Shown here piece after piece: positions 3,789 through 63,497 of a stretch of DNA of 64,000 nt; position 1 is the stretch's first letter, and every line of letters begins with the position of its first letter. The position numbers and the translations under genes were made by a program. The DNA lies in the sequence record MZ358387. The stretch is one strand, 5' to 3'. The DNA is from Shigella virus Moo19. The notes under the pieces are model-generated. The model did no database searches and had not been told where the DNA came from. It was given only the letters and a program-made list of their open reading frames with translations.

Positions 3789-3794
3789 CAATAA

Positions 3795-5274: not shown

Positions 5275-5285
5275 GGAATGAAATA

Positions 5286-6341: not shown

Positions 6342-6344
6342 AAC

Positions 6345-26659: not shown

Positions 26660-27451
26660 ATGTCAAATCTGTTTGGTAATCTGAAAGACAAAACCAAAAA
26701 CGCTGAAGCTACTAAAGACTCCCTGGGTGGTGGCTTCGGTGCTAAAGAAACTGACATCTACACTGGTGTTGTGAAAGTTGCCTACGTAGGCAAAGCTGAC
26801 TCCGGTGCTGACTGGATGCAGCTTATCATCGAAGAACTGAAGAACTCTGACGGTGCACCTGCTGGTGAATACCGTGAGCAAGTCTACTTCACTTCCGGTA
26901 AAGAAAAAGGCAACAAGCCTACTTACGAGAAGAACGGTAAGGAATACTTCCTGCCTGGTTACACCACCATCAACGATATGATGTTGATGACTACTGGCAA
27001 AGAACTGTTCGAAGCTGACTTCGAAGAGAAGATTGTCAAAGTGTATGACTTCGACCAGCAAGCCGAAGTTAACAAGTCTGTCATGGTTCCAGTCGAAATG
27101 ATTGGTCAGCCAATCACCATTGCGATTGAAAAAGTTCTGGAGAACAAACAGTCCAAAGGTGACGACGGTAAGTACTACGACAACGGTGAAACCCGTGAAG
27201 TAAACAACATCCAGAAAGTGTTCCACCCGGAACTGTTGGTTACTGTTGTTGAAGCTCGTGAAGCCGAAAAAGCAGAGAAAGACCTGACGCCTGAACTGGC
27301 TCAGTTCCATGCTGCATGGCTGGATAAGAACAAAGGTAAAACCCGTGATAAAACCAGCAAGACTGGTGGCAAAGCGGGTACTCCACCTAAACCAGGTTCT
27401 ACTGGTGGTTCTGCTCCGGCTGGTGGTAAGTCTCTGTTCGGTAAGAAATAA
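26660..27451 (+). CDS. putative single-stranded DNA-binding protein (N4 gp45-like by size and position)
   Basis: 263 aa with a Gly/Lys/Thr-rich flexible C-terminus ('KTGGKAGTPPKPGSTGGSAPAGGKSLFGKK'). Confidence 0.45.
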   Translation: MSNLFGNLKDKTKNAEATKDSLGGGFGAKETDIYTGVVKVAYVGKADSGADWMQLIIEELKNSDGAPAGEYREQVYFTSGKEKGNKPTYEKNGKEYFLPGYTTINDMMLMTTGKELFEADFEEKIVKVYDFDQQAEVNKSVMVPVEMIGQPITIAIEKVLENKQSKGDDGKYYDNGETREVNNIQKVFHPELLVTVVEAREAEKAEKDLTPELAQFHAAWLDKNKGKTRDKTSKTGGKAGTPPKPGSTGGSAPAGGKSLFGKK

Positions 27452-28011
27452 TGCAAATCCCAATTCTCGGAGCAGACATCTCTCTTCGGAATTGGGGATT
27501 AGCAAGGGGTATGCTGGACATTGAGTCCGGCGTGTTTGAGAAGGTAGAACTCAAACTGGTTCAGACTGAAGTTGACCACAACAAGCAAGTCCGAACCAAC
27601 TCCAAAGACATTCAAGCTGCCCATGATATCTTCATTGGCGTTAAGGACTGGTTCATTGAAGACAAGCCCAAAGCTGTATTCATTGAAGTGCCTGTAGGCT
27701 CTCAGTCTGCTAATGGCATGAAGTCATATGGCTTGTGTGTCGGACTCGTTGGGGCATTCCGTGCATTGGGATGCCCCGTCTTCGAGGTATCCCCTACCGA
27801 AAACAAAATTGCACTGGCTGGTAATAAAACAGCCTCCAAAGACGTAATGATACGTACTGCCTACGAAATCTATCCTGAAGCTAACTGGCTCAAGGATAGT
27901 AAGGGTAAGTTGCTCAATAAGAATGAGCACTTAGCTGATGCAATCGGTGCAATCCATGCTGGTGTAAATCTGCCAGCGTTTCAAAACTTACTGAAAATGT
28001 TAAAGGCTTAA
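27451..28011 (+). CDS. RuvC-like Holliday junction resolvase
   Basis: TAATG overlap. RNase H-fold acidic residues in 'ILGADIS', 'VFIEVPVGS' and 'EHLADAIGAIHAG'. Confidence 0.5.
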   Translation: MQIPILGADISLRNWGLARGMLDIESGVFEKVELKLVQTEVDHNKQVRTNSKDIQAAHDIFIGVKDWFIEDKPKAVFIEVPVGSQSANGMKSYGLCVGLVGAFRALGCPVFEVSPTENKIALAGNKTASKDVMIRTAYEIYPEANWLKDSKGKLLNKNEHLADAIGAIHAGVNLPAFQNLLKMLKA

Positions 28012-29026: not shown

Positions 29027-29108
29027 GGGGGAGTAGTCAAGCGGTCGAAGACGGCAGACTGTAAATCTGTTATCCCACACGGTAGTTCGAATCTACCCTC
29101 CCCCACCA
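29027..29108 (+). tRNA. tRNA-Tyr (anticodon GUA)
   Basis: 7-bp acceptor stem gggggag/ctccccc, T-loop TTCGAAT, anticodon arm 'gcagaCTGTAAAtctgt', encoded CCA. Anticodon arm resembles E. coli tRNA-Tyr as I recall it. Confidence 0.7.
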
Positions 29109-29109
29109 C

Positions 29110-29184
29110 GGTAAGTTAGCTAATTGGTGAAGCGGCTGACTGTTAATCAGTGATAGAGTGGTTCGAGTCCACTACTTACCGCCA
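29110..29184 (+). tRNA. tRNA-Asn (anticodon GUU)
   Basis: Acceptor ggtaagt/acttacc, anticodon loop 'ctGTTaa', T-arm agtgg-ttcgagt-ccact, encoded CCA. Starts 1 nt after tRNA-Tyr. Confidence 0.75.
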
Positions 29185-29189
29185 CATTA

Positions 29190-29266
29190 CGGAGTTTAGC
29201 TCAGTCTGGTAGAGCATCTGCTTTGGGAGCAGAGGGTCGTAGGTTCGAGTCCTGCAATTCCGACCA
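29190..29266 (+). tRNA. tRNA-Pro (anticodon UGG)
   Basis: Acceptor cggagtt/aattccg (one G-U), D-arm gctc...gagc, anticodon loop 'ttTGGga', T-loop ttcgagt, encoded CCA. Confidence 0.75.
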
Positions 29267-29272
29267 AACAAT

Positions 29273-29348
29273 TAGGGGTTAGTTCAGTTGGTAGAACATC
29301 GGACTTTGATTCCGAATGTCACAGGTTCGAATCCTGTACCCCTTGCCA
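29273..29348 (+). tRNA. tRNA-Gln (anticodon UUG)
   Basis: Acceptor taggggt/acccctt (1:72 mismatched), anticodon stem tcgga/tccga, loop 'ctTTGat', T-arm acagg-ttcgaat-cctgt, encoded CCA. Confidence 0.7.
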
Positions 29349-29350
29349 AA

Positions 29351-29426
29351 TGCTTCATAGCTTAGTAGGTAGAGCACACCCCTGATAAGGGTGAGGTCAT
29401 TGGTTCAAATCCAATAACGGACGCCC
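29351..29426 (+). tRNA. tRNA-Ile(GAU)-like element with no acceptor stem (possible pseudo-tRNA or non-canonical tRNA)
   Basis: Intact D-arm, anticodon arm 'cacccCTGATAAgggtg' and T-arm 'attgg-ttcaaat-ccaat', but 5' tgcttca cannot pair with 3' aacggac. Starts 2 nt after tRNA-Gln. Confidence 0.35.
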
Positions 29427-30377: not shown

Positions 30378-30383
30378 AAATTA

Positions 30384-30412
30384 AAGCCCCTCTAATGAGG
30401 GGCTTTTTTATT
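30384..30412. terminator. bidirectional rho-independent terminator at the strand switch
   Basis: Stem 'aagcccctc'/'gaggggctt', loop 'taat', flanked by A-run upstream and T-run downstream. Sits between convergent genes. Confidence 0.65.
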
Positions 30413-33400
30413 TTAGTTTACCAGATTCATCCAAGGGTTGAGGTTATGAGCACGTAAGCCCTGACCCAATCCGATAGAGTAATCCAGTCTACCATCAGCA
30501 GCAGCCGAGAACAGGTTATCCTGTAATGGCAGACCAACGTTACCAAACATGGTAGGAGTTGGAGCCAGCATAGCCATAGCTGCATGAACAGGGTTATTAC
30601 GAATCATGGACACTGCAACTTTAGTAGAACGAATCTTAAAGTTATAGAACCACATCAGACCCATGCTTTCCATGTAACCACGGAAACGACCCGGCAGACG
30701 GTCATAGTTAATGAACTCTTCGGTAACACGACCCAGAGCTTCTTCCTTACTCTTACCTTTACGCTTAGTCAGTTCATCATAGATGATTGCTTTAGCAATA
30801 AAGTCAGAGTACTCAACCGTCTTCTGGATACCCTGGAACAGAGCAGTATCCTTAGTGATAAGTGCATAACGACCAGCAGTTTGCAGCTTCTTAGGCAGCT
30901 TATCTGCTAAACGCTGCATGTACTCCTGTACCTTACCATCCGGGATTAACAGGTCATCACGAGAGATACCAGCATCAGCAATAGAAGAGAACTCACCAGC
31001 TTCCAGCAAAGGCCAGATACTCATACGCTTATAGCTATCATTGATGGACTGAATCTCAGCTTTCAGTTTACGAGCCTGGTTCGGATTAGTAGTTGCACGA
31101 AGTTCTGCTTCAGCATCAACCTGGCGAAGACGAGACTTCATATACTGGTTAATCTCAGCAGTCTTCTGAGGGATACCTTTAGCAATATCCTTAACTGGAA
31201 CACCACGGGCAACCATCTGATAGAGGTTAGCCAGGAAGTTCACAGCAGGAACCACGAGAGACTTGACCACGATTAAGGTCTTAGCCTCACGTACAACCGT
31301 CTGAGTGATATTCTCACCCTGCATAAAGTATTTGTATGCACGGTTGCCAAATACGCCCAGCATTGCTTTCTTGAAGGTATCCAAAGTCTCAGGTGACCAA
31401 CGAGAGTTACCAGTCCATACATCACCAACAGAAGCAGCACGATAACCAAGTGCATCATTCAACATGTCACGACGTACCCACAGTTCACCATTACCAAACA
31501 GTGACTCAGCTTTCTGACGAGTTTCTGCATTCATCAGACGCATAGCATCAGCAGTAACTGGGTCAAGTTTAGAACCAAGAAGGTTAATGTACTGGCTCTT
31601 ATTGCTGGTAGAATCTGCCATGTCCTTCTCGTACATAGCGTGAAGATTTTCAATCAGAGCATCGTTAAACTTCTGGGCTTTAGCTTCTTCTACCTGACGA
31701 CCTCGCCATACACCAATTGCTTTAGCAAGGTTATCCTCACCAGCAATGTGAGTCAGCATGTTAGGGTCAATAGAGTGCTCATAAGCAACCACACGACCAT
31801 TGCCATCATAGATAGGCATCAGTGGTTCATTACCACGTTCACCCTTCGCCAGAGCTTTGGTGATACGGTCAACGGAAGGCTTGTCAGTAATACGACCAGC
31901 AACCATTGTTCCCATTGTGAAGCCAGTACCAACATCCACACCACCAGCAGTATTACGAACGTTCTGGAGAATACCCTGTGAGTATGGAGCACGAGCAGCA
32001 ACCGGGCTGAAGTAGTAACCACGACTACGAGTACGTTCACCAGAGCTACCCTGATAACCAGCAATACGAGTGAATGACTTCTCACTCAGTTCGTTAAACT
32101 GGCTGTCTTCTGCAACAATCAGGTTAACACCCTGCTTAGTCTCAGAAGGAATGTAGCCTTTGTAGTGGTTCAAACGAGCACGGTCATCATTCTGTGCTTT
32201 ACGTTTCTCTTCCACACGCTGGCCTACCAGATAGGAAGTGACAAAGTCCATACCTTCGGTTTCAGTCTGAGCCAGGGAAGCTAATGCCTCACGGTCAGCC
32301 TGACTCATTGCTTCGATGGCATACAGAGTAATCAGCTTGTCTAAGGTGTCCACATCAACGGTAGATTTAACGCTGGTACGCTCACCTAACAGACGGGAGA
32401 TTGCCTCAGCATTACGCAGCAGGTTGTTACCGACAGTACCATTAATCATGTACTGAGCCAGTTGCTTAGACTTACGGTTAATCAAAGGCCAGTTACGTCC
32501 TGCCTGATTCTGGAGGTCAGCTTCCAGCTTATTAACCAGCTTATCCATTTCTTTCTGTGAAGACAGCAGGTCACGAATTTCACCCAGACTCATGGTGTCA
32601 CGCAGTACAGCAAGGTCAGTTTTACCCATACCAGTGTGCATAGCTTTCCACTCTGCATCAGTCAGCTTACGGCTGAACTTAGAAGCAATAGTGGTAGGCA
32701 GATGCTCACGGAATTGCTGACGGTCAGCCTGTACCTGAGAGCGAACAGCTTTAATCATGTCATAGACAGAAGCATTCGACTTAGTACGACCTACGATGTC
32801 ATTAACCAGGTCATAGAAAGGTTGCCATGCTTTTCCCTGGTTCATTGCAGCCATAACACCCTGTGCAACTTTCTCACCGTTCTTCTCAGTAGCAATAGCA
32901 GCTACCAATTGAGCAGCATGAGCAGTTGCCTTAACCAGTGGGTTCTTAGCATTAGCAGCAACATCACGAGCAGTATCCAGTGTGGCATCAGCCAGACGTT
33001 CTACACCATCAACAATATATTGGTTAGCACGGTCAATCATATTCCCAGTTGGGGTAGCAACAGAGTCATAGAAGGACTGAGCATTCAGGCTGGATTCCAT
33101 AATAGTTTCTGCCAGAGCATCAATACCTTCCTGAACGTTAGTTGCTTTGGTATCACCAGCAACACGCTTGTTCAGGCTATCCATTGCAGCTACGCCAATG
33201 TTAGTCAGCATTGCATCAATAGTATTACCGGATGCTTTATCTGCTTTCATAACAGGCATGTCAGTCAGTACGTTACGTACCTCTTCGCTTACCATTGCCA
33301 GACCAACAAAGGTAGGCAGTAAGGAAGAACGACCCTGAGCATCAAACTCAATATTGTTAGCACCCATCAACGTATCGAACTTCTGTTGAGCATAGTAACG

Positions 33401-36400
33401 GTCAGCAGGGTTAGTGCTGTTCGGGTCTGCCATGAAGTCTTCTACTTTCAGGTTCTTGGTAACGTGAGTGTAATACTCCTGAGCACGAGCCAGAGCAGCA
33501 GGATGAATTGCAGCCTCAGTTGCTAGTGCAGCAACAATGTTGGTGAACAGACGACGTTCTTGCATGTTCATAGTAAAACCATGCCCCTGAACATCACGAG
33601 TTACCTTAACTGCATTCACTACTGCGTCAGAGAATTTACCCTTACGCATATGTTGCTGTACCGGGTCATTACCCAGGTAGTTCGTAATGAGACGGTCAAA
33701 GGTTTGACCCAGTGAAGTAAGACGGTCATTGTTGCCATAAGCAGTGCTATGGAACAGGGTAGCCTCAGCAGTAACCGGAGCAACCGGAGGCTGTGAACGC
33801 ATCACTACAGCAGAGTTAAACAGCAGACCGGAGAACATATCTTCACCGTAAGCAGGGGCTTTCTTACGACCAAAAATGAGGCGTTTAATTGCTTCATAAA
33901 CATCTTTAACCATCCTGGTAAGAGCAGTGGTTTTCTTCTGCTTCTTAATCAGTTCATGGTTGGTTAAGCCCCATGCCATGTACTCATTCAGTGCAGCAGC
34001 TTTAGCCATTGCTGGGTCAATGAAACCGTTGGACAGATGACCATTGATAGTATCCAGTGCATCAGCGTAAGCCTCACGCATAGCCGGAGTATCTTTGGAT
34101 ACATCCAGACTACGGAACTGTTCCATCAGATTCTCGATGTTCTGTACAGCTTCATTGGTCTGGCCTTGATAGTGGTCAAGTACAGTCTCAAAAGTAGAAG
34201 CATGAACCAGTTCATGAATCAAGGTTTCCATTGATGGGCTAACCAGGTAGACAGTCTTATCTGCAAAGTTAGTCCAACCATAGATATTACCTGCATTTGC
34301 AGCTTCAATATCTTCTGGAGCAGGACGCTCTACGTTACGTTCCATTGCATACTGGTCAATCTGGTTCACGTTACCGTAAACAACCTTGTAGCCTTTAGCA
34401 GCCAGTGACTTCTGAATCTCATTCAGTACAGCAGCCTGTTCAACAGGAAGGTTGGACTCTTTAGCCAGTTTGTTAATAGCAGTCTGAGACAGCACACGAA
34501 CACCAGACTTCAGAGCACGGCCTACAGTATCAAACTTATTAGTATCGGCTACTGGAGTCTTCTCAGCTTTACGAGCCTCTTTACGAGCCTGCAATTCAGC
34601 ATCGAATAGCTCATTCAGTTTTGCTACTTGCTGGTCAACAGTCAGACCATCCAGAGAGATATTACCGTTGTTCACATAAGGGGAACCAACAGCAGCCATC
34701 TGGTCAACAGTAGTCTGTACCTGGTTCATTACCTTGTGACGGATATCGACACCCAGAGCAATGTTACGCAGGTTACGCTCAATAAGATTAACACCTGCTT
34801 TCTCAATCATATCAATCTTATACTGCCTGTCACCATCAACACGACTGATATGAGAAAGTTGTTCAAAATCCAAAGCAGAACGGGCAATACTATCAATTGC
34901 TTCATCTGATAACTTATTGAAATCTACATTTTTTACAAACTTAGAGAAGGAGTCATACACATTCTTGATAGGGTTACCCTGCCATGAAGTGTATACAGCT
35001 TCGTTAGCCTTACGGCTTGCATCAGTGATGTCATTGATACCGATGTTCATACCATCAAAGATTTTGAGAGTATTTTTCGGTGCACCTTTCATAATAGAAA
35101 GGGTCTGCATCATCATGCCGTCACCAGTACCAATCGTCATGAAAGGAATACCAGCAACACCAGCTTGTGACGGTGCATAGATGCTCATTGGCACACGCAT
35201 ACGGTCATCAAAGTTGGTAGCCAGAACCTGGTTAGCAACATCAGTATTCTCAGAACCAGCAATGTAGAAAGTCTGGGAACCAGTCTCAATCATTGGAGCT
35301 AAGTCAGACAGTGAAGCCTGAATATCGTTAAGCTCTTTCTGAGTTAAGAAGTCACCCTTCTTCCAGTTAGGGTCTTTTTCTTTTTCTGCCAGCTTCTCCT
35401 GGACACGTTGCTGGAACATGTCTTGCAGAACCAGAGACTGAATCTGGGTAGCTTTCTGAAGCTGTTCAGTGGAGTGCATCAGCCCTTCACCAACAGTATT
35501 CTGAATACCCTGTCTCATTGGTTCAACGAAAAAGTGCAGCATGTTCTCTTGCAGAGACTTCAGTTGCTCACCTTTGACAGTGAACTTCTGAGGGTCAATC
35601 TTGCCAGACATAGCAGTACCAGTGTCTTCAAGAGACAGTTTACCTTTACGCATAACTGGAACAGTACCAGTCAATGCTTTCATGTCTTCAATGAAACGAC
35701 CGAGCATAGCCTCAGCATCGGCCTCAGATGCTGCCTGCTTGCCGAACATTGCCATAGCCGGGGAAATGTCCGGGTTCTGTGCACGGGCTTGCAGAACGTC
35801 GCTGAAGCGTTCGTAGATGGCATCAGTAATTGCACTCACCATCTTGCCTGCAATACCACGAGCACCGGAACCATAAATGGTAATGGTCAGTGGGTTCTTG
35901 GCAATGCCACGTTTCAGTTCGAGGTTGCCTTCTTCATTGATGTTATAGTCAGGAATGAACAAGTCCATCAGAGAGGACAGATGATTCATCTGAGTATTAA
36001 CAGCCGGGTTATTGGCATAGGTATTTCGCAGGTTAGTCAGTGCAGCTTTCAGACCGTTAGTGGATGCTTCGTACAGGTCAACGCTATCGTCAATAGAACG
36101 ATGTTCGTTCATCGTCTTACCAGCACGACCAAAGAATAGACCACCCTTAGCAGTATTCTGTACCCATTCTTTGGTGAACTTACCACCAGTCATCAGCATC
36201 ATTGCGTTAATCGGACCGTTGGTTACACCATCAGCCTCAACGTACAGTGGAGTGTTGAACTTAGACTTGTCTTCAGCATTCAGGTAACGGGCATACTCCA
36301 TCAGAGCCATGAGAGCTACGAAGGATTTATCACCACCCAATGCAGTATTCAGAATCTCAACAGAGTTATCTGGCAGGTTCCCAGTTTTATCGAAATCAAC

Positions 36401-39400
36401 CATCATATCGACAGCAGGTTTCAAATTGCCTTCCAGTGCAGCAGTCAGTTTTGCTGACATTGCCTCACGAGACATGTTGTGAACCTTGATGCCCAATGCC
36501 TGAGCCAAGCCAACCTGGAAATCAGAGAAGGTCTGTGAGTTTTCATTGGACAGGTCAATAGTAGAAAACGTAGGCAGAATAGCTTCACGAACCAGCTTAC
36601 TGGACTGAGGATTATTCTTACCAAGCATCTGCATACGACCAACACGAGTCATGTTGTAGGCATAGTGGATTGGAGTTTCCAGTCCGTTTTCCTGTGCACG
36701 AGTTTGCTCTACCACACTAAACAAGGAATCATAAGCCATAGCTACTGACAGGTTTTTACCTTCCAGTGACTTAGCAGTATTCACATTCAGCAGTTCAGGA
36801 TTAAGCGTACCAGCACCCATCAATTCCAGAATCTTGTCACGACCCATAGCCTCATAGAAGTTAACCATAGGTTCATGAATACGGAACTCAGTAGCCTGTT
36901 CTGCTTTCAGAGCAGCTTTCTGTTCCGGGGTATTCTTAACAGCAGGGTTGCGTAACTGAGTCTGAGCCACAGAAGGTACGTCGTCACCGAAGTACATTTT
37001 CTCTTCTGGTTCTACCAACACAGCTTCTTCAATTGCTGTAGGGAATTTATTGATAGGGTCATTGTCTGCCAGCTTATCAATGGTATACAGACCAACAGTC
37101 TTAGTGGAGTCTGGGTCAATTTCAGAGACATCTAGCATAGTCTCAGTAACTTCACCTGCTTCAATAAGAGCAGACAGAATCTCAGTTGCCATAGCAACAG
37201 GGATACCTTTGGTATAACCCAGTGGTGCATTAGGGTTACGGTCAAAGCCCCAGTAAGATTCAATTTTCTGAGCCAGTGAGTTAGTAGCTTCAACGAGAGT
37301 CTGAGCATTCTCAAACATCTCAACTACACCTTCCGGTAACAGAGCCTGTTCAATACCAGTAATAGCAGCCACGTCTTTAGCATCTTTAACGGCAGCATTC
37401 TGAGTAGCAGTCAGTCGCCATTGCAGACCAGCAAGTACGGCAGTTTCAAGCAGAGAATCGTTGAACTTAAAGCTATTGCCATCTGGTTCAACAATATTCA
37501 GCAGCTTACCACCAACCCAACGGTTAGCTTCAGTGCCCTCAGCAAAACGCTTACCTACGTTCTTGTTAGACAGGAACTTAGCCAGTCGGTCATTCAGAAT
37601 GGATTTAATGTTTTCACCCGTGTTCATCAGGTCTTTATAACGACCAGATACATCAGGGGTAAGAGCAGTATTCTCACTCTGAGTAAACGTTTCGAAACGT
37701 GCATTAGAAGACAGAGCCTGACCAATATCTTTCATTGGAGACTCGGAACCAGTGGTACGAGACTTAGGTTCAGCAGGTAATGAGTAAGCAATCTTGAGGT
37801 AATTTTTTACCCCAGGCTGGCTGACATCAGTACTCCCAACCAAATCAGGATAAGCAGCGTCAATACCACTACGAGTGGATTCCACTTCATTAGTAGTTTC
37901 CTCAGTATTTTCAGTAACATCCTCGATGCTACCCTCATTGATGAGGGTAGCATCCTTTGCCTTTTCGGATTGAGGCTTAGTTACTTTCTCTGGTTCTGCC
38001 TTAGACTCAGTAAAAGGAGCACTATTTTCTACCGTCGATTCCCTATTAGGAGTTACAGTAGGTGCAGCCTCCTGAGTTTGTGCAGGAGTTTCGTCAACTT
38101 GATTCACTGGTTCATTAGTCTGTTGGGATTGAGCAGCGTCAAGATTGCCCTGACGGAACTCTTTAACCACCTGGGCAGCAGGCTTGTCCAGACGTGAATC
38201 CAATGAGGTAACATTGATATGAGAAACGTTAAGCTCCGGGTAAGCCGTAGCAAGTGCATTAGCAATATCAGCTACGGTTTTGGCTTCCAGTCCTACTTGC
38301 TGGGCAAACTTAACCGACTTGGTATCGTAAGGATTAACACCGAGTCCAGTACGACTTCTTACCCATTCACGGGAAGGGGTGAGGGCTTGGTAATGGACAG
38401 ACTTATTCTTATCCGCATTCCCAGAAATCAGATGTTCATTCAACGCTCCGACCTTGTTCTGCATGTGCTGGGCGAACTGCATAAAGTCGCTCAAATAAGC
38501 GGAAGCCAAATCGAAGTTACCAGAGTTATACGCAGACCGAATGCGTTTAGCATGTTGCAACGCAGAGTACTGGCCTTCATTAGAACGAGACTCGTCGGTT
38601 TTAATCTGTTTACCCACAATGTCTTGAGGCCGTAAACCAAGCTGTTCAGCTTTGGTATCAAACTCACGTGCTCCCTGTAATAGAGCAGCAGCGGATTGCA
38701 GGGCAGCACGTTGACGATTGTTCAACGTAATCTTGCCTTCACTCGCATGTTTCAGAACCATGTTCACTGAATCAGCGTCCAGTACTTCCGGGCTTACGTC
38801 AGCAGCCATTGCTACGTTGTTAGCCTGATTCTGGTCTGCTACATCTTCGGTCACATTCAGATTACCTTGTTCAGCTTGTTCCTGAATCATGGAATGAATG
38901 GCACGGAATGCACGAAGTACCTTTGGAGTATTCTGGATGTTAGCCATCAGACCCGAATACTGGTCGAGCACAGCATTAGCAGGACTATCTTTAGGCAGAT
39001 TGTTCAGTGCAGCAGGGTCACGGTTAACGAAGTCTTCCATCTGCATAACCATGTCGTACATATTGGCAGCAGCTTCCATCATCTGGTTCGGGTCTTCAGT
39101 AGTGTTAACTACATCAGCCAGTTTCTGGATTACCTGAACTCGGTCAGTGGAACCGTTAACAGCTTCCTGAACCACAGGAGAAGCATCAGCAAATTCTTCC
39201 GGGTTAATACGGGTAGCATTAACCAAATCACTTGCATACTGGTGTGCAGCAGCCTTCTCTTCAGGAGAGATGTCCATTGCTTCAACAGCATCAGCCATAG
39301 TTGCCTGAGCAGTATCTGCTTGTGCAGCAGCTTCCTGAGCAGCCTCAGCTACTTTAGCGTCAGCAACAGGAGAAGCCTCTTCATTGCGTCGTGCAACTTC

Positions 39401-40852
39401 TTCACCACGTTGAACCAGGATATTGGTAATAGGTGAAGCAGCTTTAGCTACGACATTACCAGCAGCGTTAAGACCAGCCAGGGTAGTACGCAGAGCAGGA
39501 CCAGCAGCAGCACTTGCAGCTTTAACAGCAGAGCCAGGAGCTTGAGCAACTCCAGCAGAGCCGAAGCCATAGAGTGCACCCAGACCAGCTTGCTCACCCA
39601 CACCTTTGAGTGTGTCACGGGTAGCATCAACGTTACTCCGAATTGCACGGTTCTGTGCATACTGACCAGTACCAGACTGAATACCTTCTTCCACAGTCTC
39701 ACGAAGCATGTTGGAACCAGCACCAGCAAGTGAACCTACTTTCAGTGGATTCAGTTCAAACTTGGATACCAGTGGACCCGTTGCAGCAGCAACCGGAGCA
39801 GTGATAGCAGCAGCATCAATACCTGTTTCAGAAGCAGTCTGACGACGAGCTTCATCTGGAGAAAGACCATCTTTGATATGTTGCTGATAAACAGGAGACT
39901 TAGCAGCCAGTTCTTCATGAGACATTTTCATAATCTCAGAAGCAGTTTGCTGATAAGCACCACCAGCTTCCATTGTGCCAATAGCAATGGCAGCAGGAGC
40001 AACCTTAGAGGCAGCATTAACCAACTGTGCAGGACGATGGCCTAATTCAGCAGCAAGTGCAATTGCACGAGCAGCTTTTTCACCACCCATTACAGCACGA
40101 CCTAATGCAGCAACCCCTTTAATAAGAGGACCACCCGTAAACAGTGAGCCTACTCCTTCGCTCAATCCATCTGTTGCAGCCATACCAGTGTCAAGAGTGT
40201 TGGCAACAGAATCATAAGCGTCACGGCCAATACGAGAAAGAGAAGCGACCAAATCACTCTCGCCATCTTTAATATCCTGTTCGTATAAACGCTGGTTTTT
40301 CTGAGCAGATAGCTGGTTCTGGTTCTGAACTACTTTACGGGAAAGATTTAAAGCATCAGACTGAAGACCATGAACACCTTCATTCAACCAGTCCATGCCA
40401 CTAGCTATGGTAGCACCAGCATTATCGTTGATAAGACCTGTTCCAAGAGAAGCAATGCCCCCAAGGGTATTAGCAACACCAAGACCAACACCAGAAAGAG
40501 AATCACCAATTGCTTCTGCATTCGTTCTCTCTCTGGATAAGTCCTGACGAACAGAATCGGCTGCATTAGCACGGCTATTAAGAATACGAAGACCTTCTTC
40601 GGTTCCATACTTAGCAATAAGTTCCATTGGGGAGGCTTGAGTAAAATCAGCCTGAAGTGAACCTGGTTCGAATGCACCAATGCCGAGATTACCTACCCGA
40701 CCTGTTTGAAGGTTATAGGCAGTATCTGGGGTGAGTTGGAAAGGGTTATACCCTTCAGCAGCTTGCTTCTGGGAGGTTGCAGTAGAGACATCGACTTGCT
40801 TAGCATTAGTGATGCTGTCTGCGAAACCTGCCAGTCTGTCAAATGTTGACAT
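30413..40852 (-). CDS. giant virion RNA polymerase (N4 gp50-like)
   Basis: ~10.4-kb ORF. Central region carries T7-like motifs ('YVEADGVTNGPINA', 'KNPLTITIYGSGARG'). ATG at 40852 has AGGAAA RBS; ORF-track start 40894 is GTG. Confidence 0.8.
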   Translation of the reverse strand: MSTFDRLAGFADSITNAKQVDVSTATSQKQAAEGYNPFQLTPDTAYNLQTGRVGNLGIGAFEPGSLQADFTQASPMELIAKYGTEEGLRILNSRANAADSVRQDLSRERTNAEAIGDSLSGVGLGVANTLGGIASLGTGLINDNAGATIASGMDWLNEGVHGLQSDALNLSRKVVQNQNQLSAQKNQRLYEQDIKDGESDLVASLSRIGRDAYDSVANTLDTGMAATDGLSEGVGSLFTGGPLIKGVAALGRAVMGGEKAARAIALAAELGHRPAQLVNAASKVAPAAIAIGTMEAGGAYQQTASEIMKMSHEELAAKSPVYQQHIKDGLSPDEARRQTASETGIDAAAITAPVAAATGPLVSKFELNPLKVGSLAGAGSNMLRETVEEGIQSGTGQYAQNRAIRSNVDATRDTLKGVGEQAGLGALYGFGSAGVAQAPGSAVKAASAAAGPALRTTLAGLNAAGNVVAKAASPITNILVQRGEEVARRNEEASPVADAKVAEAAQEAAAQADTAQATMADAVEAMDISPEEKAAAHQYASDLVNATRINPEEFADASPVVQEAVNGSTDRVQVIQKLADVVNTTEDPNQMMEAAANMYDMVMQMEDFVNRDPAALNNLPKDSPANAVLDQYSGLMANIQNTPKVLRAFRAIHSMIQEQAEQGNLNVTEDVADQNQANNVAMAADVSPEVLDADSVNMVLKHASEGKITLNNRQRAALQSAAALLQGAREFDTKAEQLGLRPQDIVGKQIKTDESRSNEGQYSALQHAKRIRSAYNSGNFDLASAYLSDFMQFAQHMQNKVGALNEHLISGNADKNKSVHYQALTPSREWVRSRTGLGVNPYDTKSVKFAQQVGLEAKTVADIANALATAYPELNVSHINVTSLDSRLDKPAAQVVKEFRQGNLDAAQSQQTNEPVNQVDETPAQTQEAAPTVTPNRESTVENSAPFTESKAEPEKVTKPQSEKAKDATLINEGSIEDVTENTEETTNEVESTRSGIDAAYPDLVGSTDVSQPGVKNYLKIAYSLPAEPKSRTTGSESPMKDIGQALSSNARFETFTQSENTALTPDVSGRYKDLMNTGENIKSILNDRLAKFLSNKNVGKRFAEGTEANRWVGGKLLNIVEPDGNSFKFNDSLLETAVLAGLQWRLTATQNAAVKDAKDVAAITGIEQALLPEGVVEMFENAQTLVEATNSLAQKIESYWGFDRNPNAPLGYTKGIPVAMATEILSALIEAGEVTETMLDVSEIDPDSTKTVGLYTIDKLADNDPINKFPTAIEEAVLVEPEEKMYFGDDVPSVAQTQLRNPAVKNTPEQKAALKAEQATEFRIHEPMVNFYEAMGRDKILELMGAGTLNPELLNVNTAKSLEGKNLSVAMAYDSLFSVVEQTRAQENGLETPIHYAYNMTRVGRMQMLGKNNPQSSKLVREAILPTFSTIDLSNENSQTFSDFQVGLAQALGIKVHNMSREAMSAKLTAALEGNLKPAVDMMVDFDKTGNLPDNSVEILNTALGGDKSFVALMALMEYARYLNAEDKSKFNTPLYVEADGVTNGPINAMMLMTGGKFTKEWVQNTAKGGLFFGRAGKTMNEHRSIDDSVDLYEASTNGLKAALTNLRNTYANNPAVNTQMNHLSSLMDLFIPDYNINEEGNLELKRGIAKNPLTITIYGSGARGIAGKMVSAITDAIYERFSDVLQARAQNPDISPAMAMFGKQAASEADAEAMLGRFIEDMKALTGTVPVMRKGKLSLEDTGTAMSGKIDPQKFTVKGEQLKSLQENMLHFFVEPMRQGIQNTVGEGLMHSTEQLQKATQIQSLVLQDMFQQRVQEKLAEKEKDPNWKKGDFLTQKELNDIQASLSDLAPMIETGSQTFYIAGSENTDVANQVLATNFDDRMRVPMSIYAPSQAGVAGIPFMTIGTGDGMMMQTLSIMKGAPKNTLKIFDGMNIGINDITDASRKANEAVYTSWQGNPIKNVYDSFSKFVKNVDFNKLSDEAIDSIARSALDFEQLSHISRVDGDRQYKIDMIEKAGVNLIERNLRNIALGVDIRHKVMNQVQTTVDQMAAVGSPYVNNGNISLDGLTVDQQVAKLNELFDAELQARKEARKAEKTPVADTNKFDTVGRALKSGVRVLSQTAINKLAKESNLPVEQAAVLNEIQKSLAAKGYKVVYGNVNQIDQYAMERNVERPAPEDIEAANAGNIYGWTNFADKTVYLVSPSMETLIHELVHASTFETVLDHYQGQTNEAVQNIENLMEQFRSLDVSKDTPAMREAYADALDTINGHLSNGFIDPAMAKAAALNEYMAWGLTNHELIKKQKKTTALTRMVKDVYEAIKRLIFGRKKAPAYGEDMFSGLLFNSAVVMRSQPPVAPVTAEATLFHSTAYGNNDRLTSLGQTFDRLITNYLGNDPVQQHMRKGKFSDAVVNAVKVTRDVQGHGFTMNMQERRLFTNIVAALATEAAIHPAALARAQEYYTHVTKNLKVEDFMADPNSTNPADRYYAQQKFDTLMGANNIEFDAQGRSSLLPTFVGLAMVSEEVRNVLTDMPVMKADKASGNTIDAMLTNIGVAAMDSLNKRVAGDTKATNVQEGIDALAETIMESSLNAQSFYDSVATPTGNMIDRANQYIVDGVERLADATLDTARDVAANAKNPLVKATAHAAQLVAAIATEKNGEKVAQGVMAAMNQGKAWQPFYDLVNDIVGRTKSNASVYDMIKAVRSQVQADRQQFREHLPTTIASKFSRKLTDAEWKAMHTGMGKTDLAVLRDTMSLGEIRDLLSSQKEMDKLVNKLEADLQNQAGRNWPLINRKSKQLAQYMINGTVGNNLLRNAEAISRLLGERTSVKSTVDVDTLDKLITLYAIEAMSQADREALASLAQTETEGMDFVTSYLVGQRVEEKRKAQNDDRARLNHYKGYIPSETKQGVNLIVAEDSQFNELSEKSFTRIAGYQGSSGERTRSRGYYFSPVAARAPYSQGILQNVRNTAGGVDVGTGFTMGTMVAGRITDKPSVDRITKALAKGERGNEPLMPIYDGNGRVVAYEHSIDPNMLTHIAGEDNLAKAIGVWRGRQVEEAKAQKFNDALIENLHAMYEKDMADSTSNKSQYINLLGSKLDPVTADAMRLMNAETRQKAESLFGNGELWVRRDMLNDALGYRAASVGDVWTGNSRWSPETLDTFKKAMLGVFGNRAYKYFMQGENITQTVVREAKTLIVVKSLVVPAVNFLANLYQMVARGVPVKDIAKGIPQKTAEINQYMKSRLRQVDAEAELRATTNPNQARKLKAEIQSINDSYKRMSIWPLLEAGEFSSIADAGISRDDLLIPDGKVQEYMQRLADKLPKKLQTAGRYALITKDTALFQGIQKTVEYSDFIAKAIIYDELTKRKGKSKEEALGRVTEEFINYDRLPGRFRGYMESMGLMWFYNFKIRSTKVAVSMIRNNPVHAAMAMLAPTPTMFGNVGLPLQDNLFSAAADGRLDYSIGLGQGLRAHNLNPWMNLVN

Positions 40853-40919
40853 AGCTTGTTTCCTGTTCAAACTTATATCTATAAGAGAACTCACTGTACA
40901 TTAAGTGAGGGTAAGAAAA

Positions 40920-40937
40920 AAGCCCCGAAGGGCTTTT
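40920..40937 (-). terminator. terminator-like hairpin downstream of the 654-aa virion protein gene
   Basis: Stem aagccc/gggctt with loop cgaa; on the minus strand it is followed by a U-run. Confidence 0.5.
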
Positions 40938-40943
40938 ATAGTA

Positions 40944-46877: not shown

Positions 46878-46895
46878 GATGTATTTCCTCATGGT

Positions 46896-46933
46896 TCAAA
46901 AAGAAACGGCTCACGGAATTAACCAGTGAGCCG
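46896..46933 (-). terminator. hairpin plus U-run between structural genes (terminator/attenuator)
   Basis: Minus-strand stem cggctcac/gtgagccg, 11-nt loop, then UUUCUUUUU. Confidence 0.4.
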
Positions 46934-46954
46934 TGTTATCGGTCAGCTTACAAC

Positions 46955-47593: not shown

Positions 47594-47611
47594 GTTAATA
47601 ATTCCTGTGGT

Positions 47612-47641
47612 TCATAAATAAGGGGGAGGTTCCCCTCCCCG
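47612..47641 (-). terminator. terminator-like hairpin downstream of the major capsid gene
   Basis: 7-bp G/C stem ggggagg/cctcccc, 14 nt after the capsid stop codon. Confidence 0.5.
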
Positions 47642-47653
47642 TTAGGTTAGCTA

Positions 47654-54477: not shown

Positions 54478-54535
54478 AATAATTTTCCACGTAGTAATAA
54501 TATGCACCAGGAATAATACTTATAAACGCTAGCCT

Positions 54536-54567
54536 ACGAAAGGAAAAAGCCCCCATTAAGGAGGCTT
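54536..54567 (-). terminator. terminator-like hairpin downstream of the tail-spike gene
   Basis: Stem aagcccc/gaggctt (one mismatch) with U-rich flank on both strands. Confidence 0.45.
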
Positions 54568-54573
54568 ACTTTT

Positions 54574-57204: not shown

Positions 57205-57212
57205 AAGAACCT

Positions 57213-57240
57213 CTTTAAAAAGCCCTACCTAAGTAGGGCA
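57213..57240 (-). terminator. rho-independent terminator downstream of the SGNH tail-fibre gene
   Basis: Stem gccctac/gtagggc, loop 'ttag' on the minus strand, then UUUUU. Confidence 0.6.
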
Positions 57241-57260
57241 TTAAATGAAAATTGGAGAGG

Positions 57261-61222: not shown

Positions 61223-62815
61223 TCACACGATGTACGAAGATAATGGGTTTGAGTTGTCGATGTCATCATCGTCATCCCACATAGGGTCACCCTTCGCATC
61301 CACCATAACCATACCTGCTTGTGGTTTCCACGGGTTAAGATAACCGAGCATCGAAATGGTATCGATACAGTCATCCTTACCTTTAATACCGTTAATGGTA
61401 GCCAGCTTAAGCTGACCCATGAACAGACCCATGATTGTAGTATCTCGCATTTCCTCCGGGAAATACATCTTACCTGTTTTGAACCAAGGAACTACGAGGT
61501 TAAAGCGAGCAAGTTTAGAGGTAACTGGACGGATACCCGGTTGTCCACCCTGAGAGGATGCAAAGTTAAAGAACACATTACGGTTAATCATTTCTTTCTG
61601 TAAGAGTGAAATGAAACCACCTTGCTGTCCTGTGACTTCAACACCAACCTGTTGTGGCTGATACTCCTGAACCAGACGGAACAAATCATCGAAATTCTTA
61701 TCCATAGTCTGGCGAGCACAGATACCATCCATCCAGAACCAATCACCATTAGAACCATAAGCCCAAACTGAAATGACAGAGTAGTCACTGGTTTGTTTCT
61801 CACTGGTAGCAAAGTCGGTTGTAATGTAATAGTTGTAGCAACTCTTCATACGAAGTAACTGCTGACGACTAAACCATTTGATTTCACTGTCCTGTACCAG
61901 ACGTTCATCTTCAGAACTAATACGAAGCATAAGTTCCTGATAGAAGCCAGCCAGCTTCCCGGTCTTCTTAGCCATCTGGTATTGGTCATTGATATAGTCA
62001 TAGGAGAAACGGTCATCCCATGCACCCTGGAACTCTTCACGAGTACAGGGGAACTTCTCACATACAGGCCATACGTTGACATCCCATGCCCCGGATTCAA
62101 CTGCTTCAATCAGAATATCTTCCTTGTTAAAGGGAGTACCATTGAAGATTACTTTACGACGAGTAGGGTCAAGTGCGTGGTTCACGCCCTTATAGACTGT
62201 ATCCTTAATGGCTTCCATGCTTGTTTTAGAACGAGCATCATCATCACTAACCAAGTCATCAAGAATGCAGAGTGTTGGACGCTTACCGAAAATCTTCGTA
62301 CCACGAAGACCTGTTTTAGCACCAAACATCTTAACACCCAGTCGGTGTCCTTCGGCATTGAAGAACTCCAGGTAGTTATCAGTAAAGGTTGCTTTAGGAA
62401 TCCATTGCTGAAGAAACTCACTGTTCTGATAACGGAACTCGATGTTCTTACGTGCAGATTTAACGCCGTTATCCATTGAGTCAGATACGTAAATCATTCC
62501 CTCAACTTTACCCAGACCAGGCAAGTGACCAAACACTGCCAGGAACAGGGTGAAGTATTCCATAAACAAAGTGGTCTTAGCTGCACCACGGAAACACAGG
62601 TTAGCAATGTACTGGTGAGGGGAAGTCACCTTATCCAGCATCTTCAAATGAACAGGGGGAGTCTTGTTTGACTCCCCTTCCTTGCCATTCACCAGCTTAA
62701 TAAAGTTGGCAAAGGTCAGAGCGAATGTGCTGGGCAGGTAGTTCGGTGTGTTAAGTACCGAGTAGTCTACACTGTCCAGCCATTCATCTAGCTCCTGCTT
62801 CTTTAATTCAGACAT
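61223..62815 (-). CDS. terminase large subunit
   Basis: 530 aa. Deviant Walker A 'CFRGAAKTT', Walker B 'LCILDDL', C-terminal RNase-H-like nuclease region. Confidence 0.6.
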   Translation of the reverse strand: MSELKKQELDEWLDSVDYSVLNTPNYLPSTFALTFANFIKLVNGKEGESNKTPPVHLKMLDKVTSPHQYIANLCFRGAAKTTLFMEYFTLFLAVFGHLPGLGKVEGMIYVSDSMDNGVKSARKNIEFRYQNSEFLQQWIPKATFTDNYLEFFNAEGHRLGVKMFGAKTGLRGTKIFGKRPTLCILDDLVSDDDARSKTSMEAIKDTVYKGVNHALDPTRRKVIFNGTPFNKEDILIEAVESGAWDVNVWPVCEKFPCTREEFQGAWDDRFSYDYINDQYQMAKKTGKLAGFYQELMLRISSEDERLVQDSEIKWFSRQQLLRMKSCYNYYITTDFATSEKQTSDYSVISVWAYGSNGDWFWMDGICARQTMDKNFDDLFRLVQEYQPQQVGVEVTGQQGGFISLLQKEMINRNVFFNFASSQGGQPGIRPVTSKLARFNLVVPWFKTGKMYFPEEMRDTTIMGLFMGQLKLATINGIKGKDDCIDTISMLGYLNPWKPQAGMVMVDAKGDPMWDDDDDIDNSNPLSSYIV

Positions 62816-63497
62816 CAGTAATATCCTCGTCTGCCCTGATTAGAGCACTGCCAGCTATTTCCTTGGTTGAAGTGCCTCCTTGAATTGCTTCAATCTGCTT
62901 CTCAGCCAAGGCTTGCAGTGTGTTCTTGAGGTCAGTCAACCCAGAGCTTTCACGCACATCAATGTTGATATTCGTTGAGGCATCCTTCGGCTTAGCCAAG
63001 TGAGTAAGGATTGAGTTAGCTGCATCACAGCGAACTTTCTCACTAACGGCTGTATTCATCAACTCTACCTGAACGTTTATAGCCTTTTGATAGTTGTCTT
63101 GGTTTACAATCCACACTGGAACCAAACTTTGTTCCATGATGAGGTTAACCAGCTTGCCTCGGTGGTAAGCAGACACGTAAGCACTGATATCTTTCTCACT
63201 GGTTCCACGAGCTACTAATTCAGCTTGTCGATTCGGGAATGTCTTGAAGTAAGCATCCTTGTTACTGTACCCCATGTGCTTATAGGTTACATACTGAACT
63301 GCACTGATGTAGTCAGCAGTCTTGAACTTTCCTTCCTTCATTACCCCAGAGTATGAGATGAAATTCTCACGGAAGGTCTGAGCGAGTAACTCATCCTGGG
63401 TCACGTTGTTAATTGTATCGACCAACTCCTGAGTAACACTGTTCTTGAAGTTGGATGGCAATGCGTTGATTACCTGTTGTTTAGTAAGTTCACTCAT
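62808..63497 (-). CDS. putative terminase small subunit (by position)
   Basis: 229 aa, immediately upstream of and overlapping the large terminase gene; first gene of the leftward late block. Confidence 0.35.
   Translation of the reverse strand: MSELTKQQVINALPSNFKNSVTQELVDTINNVTQDELLAQTFRENFISYSGVMKEGKFKTADYISAVQYVTYKHMGYSNKDAYFKTFPNRQAELVARGTSEKDISAYVSAYHRGKLVNLIMEQSLVPVWIVNQDNYQKAINVQVELMNTAVSEKVRCDAANSILTHLAKPKDASTNINIDVRESSGLTDLKNTLQALAEKQIEAIQGGTSTKEIAGSALIRADEDITDV

What the first reader, a model, noticed from the sequence alone, without database searches (positions are those of the whole stretch)
30413..40894. Giant virion RNA polymerase gene identifies an N4-like phage; start codon ambiguous
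A single ORF of about 10.4 kb encodes a ~3,480-aa protein with T7-like polymerase motifs in its central part, the hallmark of N4-type phages that inject their own RNAP. The longest ORF starts at GTG 40894, but the ATG at 40852 has a well-spaced AGGAAA RBS. A terminator-like hairpin at 40920-40937 lies just upstream, implying the gene has its own promoter or is expressed by read-through.
Basis: partly seen in the sequence, partly recalled or inferred. Interest (0 to 1): 0.45.

Follow-up and report, generated by a model that had tools for sequence, protein, structure and literature searches.

The report
Known N4-type virion RNA polymerase gene
This 10.4-kb gene encodes the giant RNA polymerase that N4-type phages pack into the virion and inject with their DNA; its product is residue-for-residue the already annotated and published gp67 of Shigella phage Moo19, so it is a correct but ordinary call.

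Summary
One uninterrupted minus-strand ORF runs from 40894 to 30413, giving 3,493 aa from the GTG or 3,479 aa from ATG 40852. The protein aligns end to end with coliphage N4 gp50, the virion RNA polymerase (E = 0, 68% identity). It hits all four Pfam vRNAP domains and keeps every catalytic and promoter-hairpin-reading residue I checked. The neighbouring genes are those of an N4-type phage.

The start-codon question resolves to ATG 40852:
- It matches N4 Met1, and the N-terminus MSTFDRLAGFAD is conserved out to relatives about 45% identical.
- An invariant AGGAA lies 8 nt upstream of it.
- The N4 equivalent of the GTG is followed at once by an in-frame TGA, and G7C-like phages have a 2-nt indel in between.
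- The GTG has no ribosome-binding site and sits inside a stem-loop.

The ATG-start product is identical to gp67 of Shigella virus Moo19 (YP_010657789.1). That protein was published in 2024 and detected in purified virions by mass spectrometry, so the finding is already known.

The terminator-like hairpin upstream is real and conserved but weak (-11 kcal/mol). Whether the gene is expressed from its own late promoter or by read-through is still open. A second stem-loop and an invariant 12-mer (GATATAAGTTTG) between the terminator and the ribosome-binding site are the only unexplained items.

The parts
30413..40852 (-). Virion RNA polymerase (vRNAP) gene, 3,479 codons plus TAA stop. By alignment to N4 gp50: N-terminal membrane-associating domain at about residues 1-900, low-complexity linker at about 903-990, T7-like RNA polymerase domain at about 991-2098, short linker, then C-terminal domain at about 2110-3479.
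   Evidence: The product is identical to Moo19 gp67. N4 domain boundaries are taken from PMC13434306.
40850..40852 (-). True start codon (ATG), equivalent to Met1 of N4 gp50.
   Evidence: The deposited Moo19 protein starts here.
40859..40864 (-). Shine-Dalgarno sequence AGGAAA, 8 nt upstream of the ATG. AGGAA is invariant in 11 Enquatrovirinae sequences.
40892..40894 (-). GTG that opens the longest ORF. It is not the start: it has no ribosome-binding site, lies in the 3' arm of stem-loop 2, and is not conserved as an open in-frame start in relatives.
   Evidence: The GTG-start product is absent from the protein collection.
40868..40879 (-). Invariant 12-mer GATATAAGTTTG, containing the -10-like TATAAG. 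It is a candidate late-promoter element or translation-initiation element; its function is not shown.
40890..40909 (-). Stem-loop 2, CTCACT-TAATGTAC-AGTGAG (-6.5 kcal/mol). A stem is present at this place in all 14 relatives examined, but with shifting register.
   Evidence: RNAalifold on the sequence alignment did not recover it.
40916..40937 (-). Intrinsic-terminator-like hairpin T1 after the gp51-like gene: AAAAGCCC-UUCG-GGGCUUUU plus a U-tract, -11.1 kcal/mol.
30383..30406 (.). Bidirectional terminator hairpin with a 10-bp stem (-18 kcal/mol on either strand). It lies between the end of the vRNAP gene and the convergent plus-strand middle genes.
   Evidence: The homologous site is annotated as a terminator on both strands in phage SP5M.
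40944..42908 (-). gp51-like ejection/virion protein gene immediately upstream (654 aa, 51% identical to N4 gp51).
   Evidence: The role of N4 gp51 is taken from PMC13434306.

Best explanation
The ORF is the virion-encapsidated RNA polymerase of an N4-type podophage. Its product is residue-for-residue gp67 of Shigella phage Moo19.

Mechanism, by homology with N4 gp50:
- The roughly 378-kDa single-chain protein is made late in infection and a few copies are packaged into the capsid.
- It is ejected through the tail together with the gp51- and gp52-like proteins.
- Its N-terminal domain anchors it at the membrane.
- Its central T7-like domain recognises small DNA hairpin promoters, extruded at the left end of the injected genome, and transcribes the early genes.
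- Its C-terminal domain modulates (autoinhibits) the polymerase.

Translation starts at ATG 40852, not at GTG 40894.

The gene is the last one of the leftward late transcription unit. It is most likely transcribed by host sigma-70 RNA polymerase activated by the phage SSB. Transcripts either read through the weak terminator T1 from upstream late promoters, start at a weak non-consensus late promoter in the 60 nt between T1 and the ribosome-binding site, or both.

Shown here: gene integrity, homology, motifs, start codon, genomic context and conservation of the upstream elements. Shown in the literature: the Moo19 protein is present in virions. Inferred: ejection, hairpin-promoter use, and the route of late expression.
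For: **Homology.**
- The protein aligns end to end with N4 gp50 chains of 3,500 aa (11gp, 9pnq, 9pnr) at E = 0, residues 1-3478 against 1-3499. It also matches the mini-vRNAP crystal structures 2po4, 3c2p and 3q0a.
- Four Pfam vRNAP domains are hit, with E-values from 1e-28 to 1e-98. PHROG 2206 is hit at E = 0.
- Identity to N4 is 68% overall: 61% in the N-terminal part, 72% in the polymerase domain and 70% in the C-terminal part. Identity to G7C-like phages is 81-82%.

**Conserved residues.**
- Catalytic residues R424, K437, R440, E557, D559, R666, K670, Y678 and D951 (N4 mini-vRNAP numbering) are all kept.
- Hairpin-promoter readers K114, R119, W129, D901 and R904 are all kept. Their roles are described in PMC4496689.

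**Identity with Moo19.**
- The product is an exact match to Moo19 gp67.
- gp67 was detected by mass spectrometry in CsCl-purified virions and reported as 67.1% identical to N4 vRNAP (PMC11654681).

**Start codon.**

**Context.**
- The RNAPII large subunit, DNA polymerase, Sak4-like protein, gp51/52/53-like proteins, capsid protein and portal are all present.
- An SSB 61% identical to N4SSB is present, with the same C-terminal KSLFGKK.
- Late genes read leftward and converge on the middle genes, as in N4 (PMC4496689).

**Promoter scan.** A scan for hairpin promoters finds the three in the N4 left end and six in the closest relative, Jgk1. It finds none of that kind in the window, which begins at the end of the gene upstream of the gp16-like gene, so past the early region.
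Against: Nothing contradicts the identification. The weak points are these:
- Nothing in the window tests ejection or hairpin-promoter use, because the early region lies outside it.
- The N-terminus of the virion protein has not been determined directly. The Moo19 mass spectrometry was a tryptic identification.
- The route of transcription is unknown. No sigma-70 consensus promoter lies in the spacer, T1 strength has not been measured, and in the N4-like phage LUZ7 long-read transcriptomics could not assign the vRNAP gene to any operon.
Confidence: 0.97

Rival explanations
1. The protein starts at GTG 40894, the longest ORF, which would add 14 residues (VSSLIDISLNRKQA) to the N-terminus.
For: It is the first start codon after the upstream in-frame stop. 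A similar in-frame GTG exists in the relative Jgk1.
Against: - There is no purine-rich ribosome-binding site upstream of the GTG.
- The GTG lies in the 3' arm of stem-loop 2.
- In N4 the equivalent GTG is followed directly by TGA. In G7C-like phages a 2-nt indel and an in-frame stop separate it from the ATG.
- The ATG and its AGGAA are invariant.
- The N-terminus MSTFDRLAG is conserved in relatives that are only 41-46% identical.
- The GTG-start protein is not in a collection of 15 billion sequences, whereas the ATG-start protein is the deposited one.
Confidence: 0.02
2. The vRNAP gene has its own late promoter in the 60 nt between terminator T1 and the ribosome-binding site. The invariant GATATAAGTTTG would supply a -10-like TATAAG, and the stem-loop 2 region would sit where a -35 element would be. 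T1 would insulate the gene from upstream transcription.
For: - The 12-mer is invariant in 11 distinct Enquatrovirinae sequences whose spacers are otherwise 83% identical on average.
- A near-copy, GACATAACTTTG, sits 13 nt before the ATG of the first late gene, at 63522-63511. N4 has TAGATAATTTG at the equivalent place.
- N4 late promoters are reported to resemble sigma-70 promoters only weakly and to need N4SSB (PMC9163698; PMC4496689).
- The terminator-plus-spacer arrangement is kept even in relatives 41-46% identical.
Against: - TATAAG lacks the critical final T of the -10 hexamer.
- No site passes the sigma-70 scan in the window, N4 or Bas96.
- The degenerate pattern was derived after seeing the two sites, so its low chance expectation is not an independent test.
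- The 12-mer abuts the ribosome-binding site and could instead be a translation element.
- The more distant relatives lack the 12-mer.
Confidence: 0.4
3. The vRNAP gene has no promoter of its own. It is expressed only by partial read-through of the weak terminator T1 from promoters upstream of the gp53-gp51 genes. That would keep synthesis of a very costly protein, needed at about four copies per virion, below that of its neighbours.
For: - T1 is short, with 4 G-C and 4 A-U pairs at -11.1 kcal/mol, against -18 kcal/mol for the terminator that ends the unit.
- Terminator-like hairpins also sit in four other late intergenic spacers, which suggests stepwise attenuation.
- In LUZ7 more than 60% of terminators let most transcripts through.
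- No consensus promoter lies in the spacer.
- N4 virions hold about four vRNAP copies (PMC4496689).
Against: This does not explain the invariant 12-mer or the conserved stem-loop 2 downstream of T1. Terminator efficiency cannot be read from sequence.
Confidence: 0.4

Closest known systems
Shigella virus Moo19 gp67 (YP_010657789.1 / UEN68863.1; genome MZ358387)
   Same: The two are identical over all 3,479 residues, with the same ATG start. gp67 is published as a 378-kDa virion RNA polymerase found in purified virions by mass spectrometry (PMC11654681).
   Different: Nothing differs at the protein level. I did not compare the rest of the window with the Moo19 record, which is not in the phage collection I could search.
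Coliphage N4 gp50 virion RNA polymerase (YP_950528.1; PDB 2PO4, 3C2P, 3Q22, 9PNQ, 9PNR, 11GP)
   Same: - It has the same three-part architecture and aligns end to end.
- The catalytic and hairpin-promoter-reading residues are identical.
- The neighbours are the same (gp51/gp52/gp53 upstream, convergent terminator downstream).
- The upstream spacer has the same layout of T1, stem-loop 2, 12-mer and AGGAA.
   Different: - Identity is 68% overall.
- The window's protein is 21 residues shorter.
- The weakest conservation is at N4 residues 101-300 (42-44%), in the NTD-RNAP linker (43%) and at 2001-2200 (52-53%, including the RNAP-CTD linker).
G7C-like Gamaleyavirus vRNAPs (for example Bas96, SP5M) and Escherichia phage Jgk1
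   Same: These are the closest sequences in the searchable phage collection, at 81-82% amino-acid and about 80% nucleotide identity over 96-99% of the gene.
   Different: - Bas96 carries about 128 extra residues in the linker.
- Across the rest of the window, the best-matching phages in the collection cover only 58-74% at 77-82% nucleotide identity. This agrees with the published view that Moo19 is a separate lineage within Enquatrovirinae.
T7-like single-subunit RNA polymerases
   Same: The central domain carries motifs TxxGR, A, B and C and the right-hand fold, through its identity with the N4 mini-vRNAP structures (PMC4496689).
   Different: - It is embedded in a polypeptide about four times larger.
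- It is packaged and ejected.
- It recognises single-stranded DNA hairpins rather than duplex promoters (PMC4496689).

Membership tests
N4-type (Schitoviridae) virion RNA polymerase | A single giant polypeptide of about 3,400-3,600 aa, homologous over its whole length to N4 gp50. | tested here: met
   The protein is 3,479 aa. phmmer gives E = 0 with residues 1-3478 against 1-3499 of the N4 chain. PHROG 2206 covers residues 25-3478.
N4-type (Schitoviridae) virion RNA polymerase | A central T7-like single-subunit RNAP domain with motifs TxxGR, A, B and C and both catalytic aspartates. | tested here: met
   PF21894, PF21867, PF21769 and PF21624 are all far above their cut-offs. R1406, D1541, R1648, K1652, Y1660 and D1933 lie in contexts identical to N4.
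N4-type (Schitoviridae) virion RNA polymerase | Residues that read the DNA-hairpin promoter (N4 mini-vRNAP K114, R119, W129, D901, R904). | tested here: met
   All five are conserved in the window's protein and in three other relatives. Their roles are taken from PMC4496689.
N4-type (Schitoviridae) virion RNA polymerase | Cognate hairpin promoters (5-7 bp stem, CGRAG-type 3-nt loop, template +1 C) at the left end of the same genome. | not testable with these tools
   The window begins at the 3' end of the gene upstream of the gp16-like gene, so the early region is missing. The scan finds none of that kind in the window, but three in the N4 left end and six in the relative Jgk1. Exact-protein look-ups meant to fetch the left end found nothing.
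N4-type (Schitoviridae) virion RNA polymerase | The protein is present in mature virions. | not testable with these tools
   This cannot be tested from sequence. The literature reports Moo19 gp67, the identical protein, detected by mass spectrometry in CsCl-purified virions (PMC11654681).
N4-type (Schitoviridae) virion RNA polymerase | N4-type genomic context: last gene of the leftward late unit, preceded by the gp53, gp52 and gp51 ejection/plug genes; second RNAP (gp15/16) and N4SSB elsewhere in the genome. | tested here: met
   See, compared with the N4 annotation.
Intrinsic (rho-independent) terminator, for hairpin 40937-40916 | A G+C-rich stem-loop followed directly by a U-tract, placed after a stop codon and conserved among relatives. 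| tested here: met
   The GCCC-UUCG-GGGC core is extended by four A-U pairs and followed by six U's, at -11.1 kcal/mol and z = -2.8. It is present in all 14 relatives, with longer stems in the distant ones. The homologous hairpin is flagged in Bas96. Termination activity itself was not tested.
Sigma-70-type promoter in the 40853-40943 spacer | -35 and -10 hexamers with 16-18 nt spacing, at least 9 of 12 matches, and A2/T6 in the -10. | tested here: not met
   No site on the gene's strand lies within the spacer in the window, and none is called in the scanned stretch around the N4 and Bas96 spacers. Only the -10-like TATAAG is present. N4 late promoters are known to be poor matches to the consensus, so failing this test does not exclude a late promoter.

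The most novel reading that the evidence does not exclude
The conserved module between terminator T1 and the ribosome-binding site could be a dedicated, undescribed control element for synthesis of the giant polymerase. The module is a stem-loop present in all 14 relatives (with one clean compensatory C:G to T:A change but a shifting register) plus an invariant GATATAAGTTTG. It might be an N4SSB-dependent late promoter with a structured upstream part, or an RNA processing or translation element that sets vRNAP dosage relative to gp51 and gp52.
Probability: 0.25. Interest if true: 0.35.

Novelty: already known. Interest (0 to 1): 0.1.

Why it matters
The call itself adds nothing new. The gene is annotated in GenBank as Moo19 gp67, its product has been found in virions, and the homologous N4 enzyme has crystal and cryo-EM structures.

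Its practical value is as an anchor. It fixes the window as an Enquatrovirinae genome and orients the early, middle and late modules. It also shows that the longest-ORF rule over-extends this gene by 14 codons; the gp16-like gene at 143/179 is over-extended in the same way.

One small open point has some general interest. It is still unclear how N4-type phages transcribe and dose a 10-kb late gene needed at only about four copies per virion. That question could be tested directly on the 91-nt spacer described here.

Tried and rejected
1. **GTG 40894 as start.** Rejected, as set out under the rival explanations.
2. **In-frame TTG at 40870-40868 as start.** It lies six codons upstream of the ATG, inside the invariant 12-mer. 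Rejected because it has no ribosome-binding site upstream and the invariant AGGAA would then fall inside the coding sequence.
3. **Split or frameshifted gene.** Rejected. There is one frame with no stops, collinear with N4 gp50.
4. **vRNAP-type hairpin promoters in the window.** GCGRAGC is not enriched, with 5 matches against 6.1 expected. The structured scan finds only one 5-bp hairpin, at 9353, on the wrong strand and with template +1 = T.
5. **Fetching the Moo19 left end.** Exact look-ups of the gp16-like protein and the next protein were not on record.
6. **Formal covariation for stem-loop 2.** RNAalifold on the MAFFT alignment gives a different, weak consensus of -7.5 kcal/mol with an unfavourable covariation term, and does not recover the stem. 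Re-aligning only the hairpin segments still aligns by sequence, not by structure. The support is therefore per-sequence stems, each only weakly better than shuffles, with 30 to 1,219 of 2,000 shuffles doing as well.
7. **Supplementary TSS tables for the N4-like phage LUZ7.** These are not held.
8. **Rfam.** Only tRNAs were found in the window.
9. **The pattern GAYATAASTTTG as a late-promoter signature.** It gives 2 hits against 0.08 expected, but it was derived from those same two sites, so I treat it as a lead only.


Full report
**Observation**

The ORF list gives one minus-strand ORF at 30413..40894, 3,493 aa from a GTG, with only short ORFs overlapping it. Translated from ATG 40852 it yields 3,479 residues and one terminal stop.

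Reading the upstream sequence places the features as follows:
- GTG is at 40894-40892 and ATG at 40852-40850.
- AGGAAA is at 40864-40859, leaving 8 nt between AGGA and the ATG.
- A hairpin AAAAGCCC-TTCG-GGGCTTTT spans 40937-40918 and runs into a six-T tract.
- The stop codon of the upstream gene is at 40946-40944.

**Identity of the protein**

The protein aligns over its whole length with the 3,500-aa N4 virion RNA polymerase chains now in the PDB (11gp, 9pnq, 9pnr). The E-value is 0, with residues 1-3478 against 1-3499. It also matches the mini-vRNAP crystal structures 2po4, 3c2p and 3q0a.
- Pfam finds four vRNAP-specific domains between residues 1310 and 2053, all far above threshold.
- PHROG 2206, 'virion RNA polymerase', matches residues 25-3478 at E = 0.

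In a five-way alignment, identity to N4 gp50 is 68% overall:

| Region (N4 numbering) | Identity to N4 |
|---|---|
| 1-997 | 61% |
| 998-2103 (polymerase domain) | 72% |
| 2104-3500 | 70% |

Identity to the G7C-like proteins and Jgk1 is 81-82%.

The residues that define the enzyme lie in contexts identical to N4:
- TRVGR (R1406);
- VEADG (E1539, D1541);
- RGIAKNPLTITIYG (R1648, K1652, Y1660);
- IFDG (D1933);
- the initiating-nucleotide contacts K1419 and R1422.

The five residues the N4 literature assigns to reading the promoter hairpin are also kept: K114, R119, W129, D901 and R904 in mini-vRNAP numbering (roles from PMC4496689).

The domain plan reported for N4 maps onto this protein. That plan is NTD, about 100 residues of low-complexity linker, RNAP 1007-2101, a 23-residue linker, then the CTD (PMC13434306). 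The linkers are among the least conserved and most length-variable parts. Phage Bas96 carries about 128 extra residues in the first linker.

**It is a known gene**

An exact-sequence look-up finds the 3,479-aa ATG-start product in NCBI as gp67 of Shigella virus Moo19 (YP_010657789.1, UEN68863.1). The GTG-start version is absent from the collection.

The Moo19 paper (PMC11654681) reports:
- a 72,458-bp genome (MZ358387);
- gp67 as a 378-kDa RNA polymerase;
- its detection by mass spectrometry in CsCl-purified virions;
- 67.1% identity to N4's polymerase, which agrees with my 68%.

The phage collection I could search does not hold Moo19. This explains why the best nucleotide matches are only 77-82% identical over 58-74% of the flanking regions. 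It also fits the paper's statement that Moo19 stands apart from the three genera of Enquatrovirinae.

**Context**

The window has the N4 layout.
- Plus-strand middle and replication genes include a gp16-like RNAPII subunit at 179-1396, DNA polymerase, a Sak4-like protein, and an SSB at 26660-27451. The SSB is 61% identical to N4SSB and has the same C-terminal KSLFGKK.
- A tRNA cluster follows these genes.
- A strong bidirectional terminator sits at 30383-30406.
- The minus-strand late genes then follow in the N4 order: vRNAP, gp51-like (51% identical), gp52-like, gp53-like, capsid protein, portal and so on.

This rests, compared with the N4 annotation.

According to the N4 literature, late genes are read leftward by host sigma-70 RNA polymerase activated by N4SSB (PMC4496689). 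[quoted passage not shown] My scan for such hairpins recovers three in the first 4.6 kb of N4 and six in the first 6.3 kb of Jgk1. All lie on the template strand with C at +1. The scan finds none of that kind in the window, which starts past the early region.

**Start codon**

Five lines of evidence point to ATG 40852:
1. It aligns with Met1 of N4 gp50 (MSVFDRLAGF against MSTFDRLAGF). The motif persists in relatives only 41-46% identical over the N-terminal 400 residues (MSTFDRLAGY, M..STFDRLAGFADA).
2. AGGAA at the right spacing, and the ATG itself, are invariant in 11 distinct Enquatrovirinae spacers.
3. The 42 nt between GTG and ATG do not behave as coding sequence. In N4 the equivalent GTG is followed directly by TGA. 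In the G7C group a 2-nt indel shifts the frame and an in-frame stop intervenes.
4. The GTG has no ribosome-binding site and lies in the 3' arm of a stem-loop.
5. The deposited Moo19 protein uses the ATG.

Direct N-terminal protein data are still lacking.

**The upstream spacer**

The 91-nt spacer has a conserved four-part layout.
- **T1 (40937-40916).** This is a terminator-like hairpin with a UUCG loop, at -11.1 kcal/mol. It is kept in all relatives and has much longer stems in the distant ones.
- **Stem-loop 2 (40909-40890).** It folds at -6.5 kcal/mol.
- **The invariant 12-mer.** GATATAAGTTTG lies at 40879-40868.
- **The ribosome-binding site.** It follows the 12-mer directly.

T1 is clearly weaker than the -18 kcal/mol hairpin that closes the unit. 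Similar hairpins sit in four other late spacers. Together these are compatible with stepwise attenuation, as measured in the N4-like phage LUZ7, where most terminators are leaky. In that study the 10.2-kb vRNAP gene could not be assigned to an operon (PMC9163698).

No consensus sigma-70 promoter is found in the spacer in the window, N4 or Bas96. The 12-mer does contain the -10-like TATAAG. A near-copy sits at the same distance from the ATG of the first late gene, at 63522-63511, and N4 has TAGATAATTTG at the equivalent place. N4 late promoters are described as only weakly sigma-70-like.

I therefore rate 'own weak late promoter' and 'read-through only' as about equally likely, and they are not mutually exclusive.

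**Stem-loop 2**

Each of the 14 relatives has a 5-9-bp stem at this place.
- One change is cleanly compensatory: C:G in Jgk1/L009 becomes T:A in L011/L012, in the same alignment columns.
- L017 turns a G·T wobble of the G7C group into G:C.
- The 5' arm sits at different distances in different lineages, giving loops of 4 to 8 nt.
- RNAalifold on the sequence alignment does not recover the stem.
- Each stem taken alone is only modestly better than shuffled sequence.

I regard it as a plausible conserved structure of unknown role, not as an established element.

**Verdict**

The finding is correct in observation and interpretation, and the start-codon ambiguity is resolved in favour of the ATG. 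It describes a gene that is already annotated and published, belonging to one of the best-studied phage enzyme families. Interest is low. The only residual question is how the gene is transcribed and dosed, and the conserved spacer gives a defined target for that experiment.

Noticed in passing
window 40890-40909 (-): A second stem-loop, CTCACT-TAATGTAC-AGTGAG, lies between terminator T1 and the ribosome-binding site, and the spurious GTG start sits in its 3' arm. A stem exists at this place in all 14 relatives, with one clean compensatory change. The register shifts between lineages and RNAalifold does not recover it. Its function is unknown.
   Followed up: partly
window 40868-40879 (-) and 63511-63522 (-): GATATAAGTTTG is invariant upstream of the vRNAP gene in 11 Enquatrovirinae sequences. 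A near-copy, GACATAACTTTG, sits 13 nt before the ATG of the first late gene (62808-63497). It may be a late-promoter -10 region or a translation element. The shared pattern was derived after seeing both sites.
   Followed up: partly
window 30383-30406: A perfect 10-bp hairpin (-18 kcal/mol on either strand), flanked by A- and T-runs, lies between the convergent vRNAP gene and the plus-strand gene ending at 30377. It looks like a bidirectional terminator separating the late and middle transcription units. The homologous site is annotated as a terminator on both strands in phage SP5M.
   Followed up: yes
window 46893-46954, 47594-47653, 54508-54573, 57205-57260 (-): Four more late intergenic spacers carry G+C-rich hairpins followed by T-runs. 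This suggests stepwise attenuation along the late unit. The spacer at 54508-54573 also has TATAAGT downstream of its hairpin.
   Followed up: no
window 29027-29415 (+): A cluster of four tRNA genes (Tyr-GTA, Asn-GTT, Pro-TGG, Gln-TTG) lies here. A fifth, partial tRNA-like match at 29358-29415 is seen by Rfam only. The cluster sits just before the end of the plus-strand unit. Relatives carry different tRNAs at this place (Val in Bas96, Ile in SP5M).
   Followed up: partly
window 143-1396 (+): The longest ORF of the gp16-like RNAPII subunit starts at GTG 143. The family match begins at residue 13, where ATG 179 follows a GGAG. This is the same longest-ORF over-extension as at the vRNAP gene. The ATG-start protein was not found by exact look-up.
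   Followed up: partly
window 26663-27505 (-): A 280-aa antisense ORF lies exactly over the SSB gene (26660-27451, +). It is almost certainly a shadow ORF, since the plus-strand product is 61% identical to N4SSB.
   Followed up: partly
vRNAP residues about 903-990 (window about 37880-38145, -): The low-complexity linker between the N-terminal domain and the polymerase domain is only about 43% identical to N4. It varies in length among close relatives, and Bas96 has about 128 extra residues there. This fits the 'beads on a string' model proposed for N4 gp50.
   Followed up: partly
L030 (Jgk1 1-7400) positions 96 and 596: The closest relative in the collection, Jgk1, carries six N4-type hairpin promoters (CGGAG loops, template +1 C) in its first 6.3 kb. 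Two of them, about 500 bp apart, are identical together with their flanks, which suggests a direct repeat at the left end of that genome.
   Followed up: no
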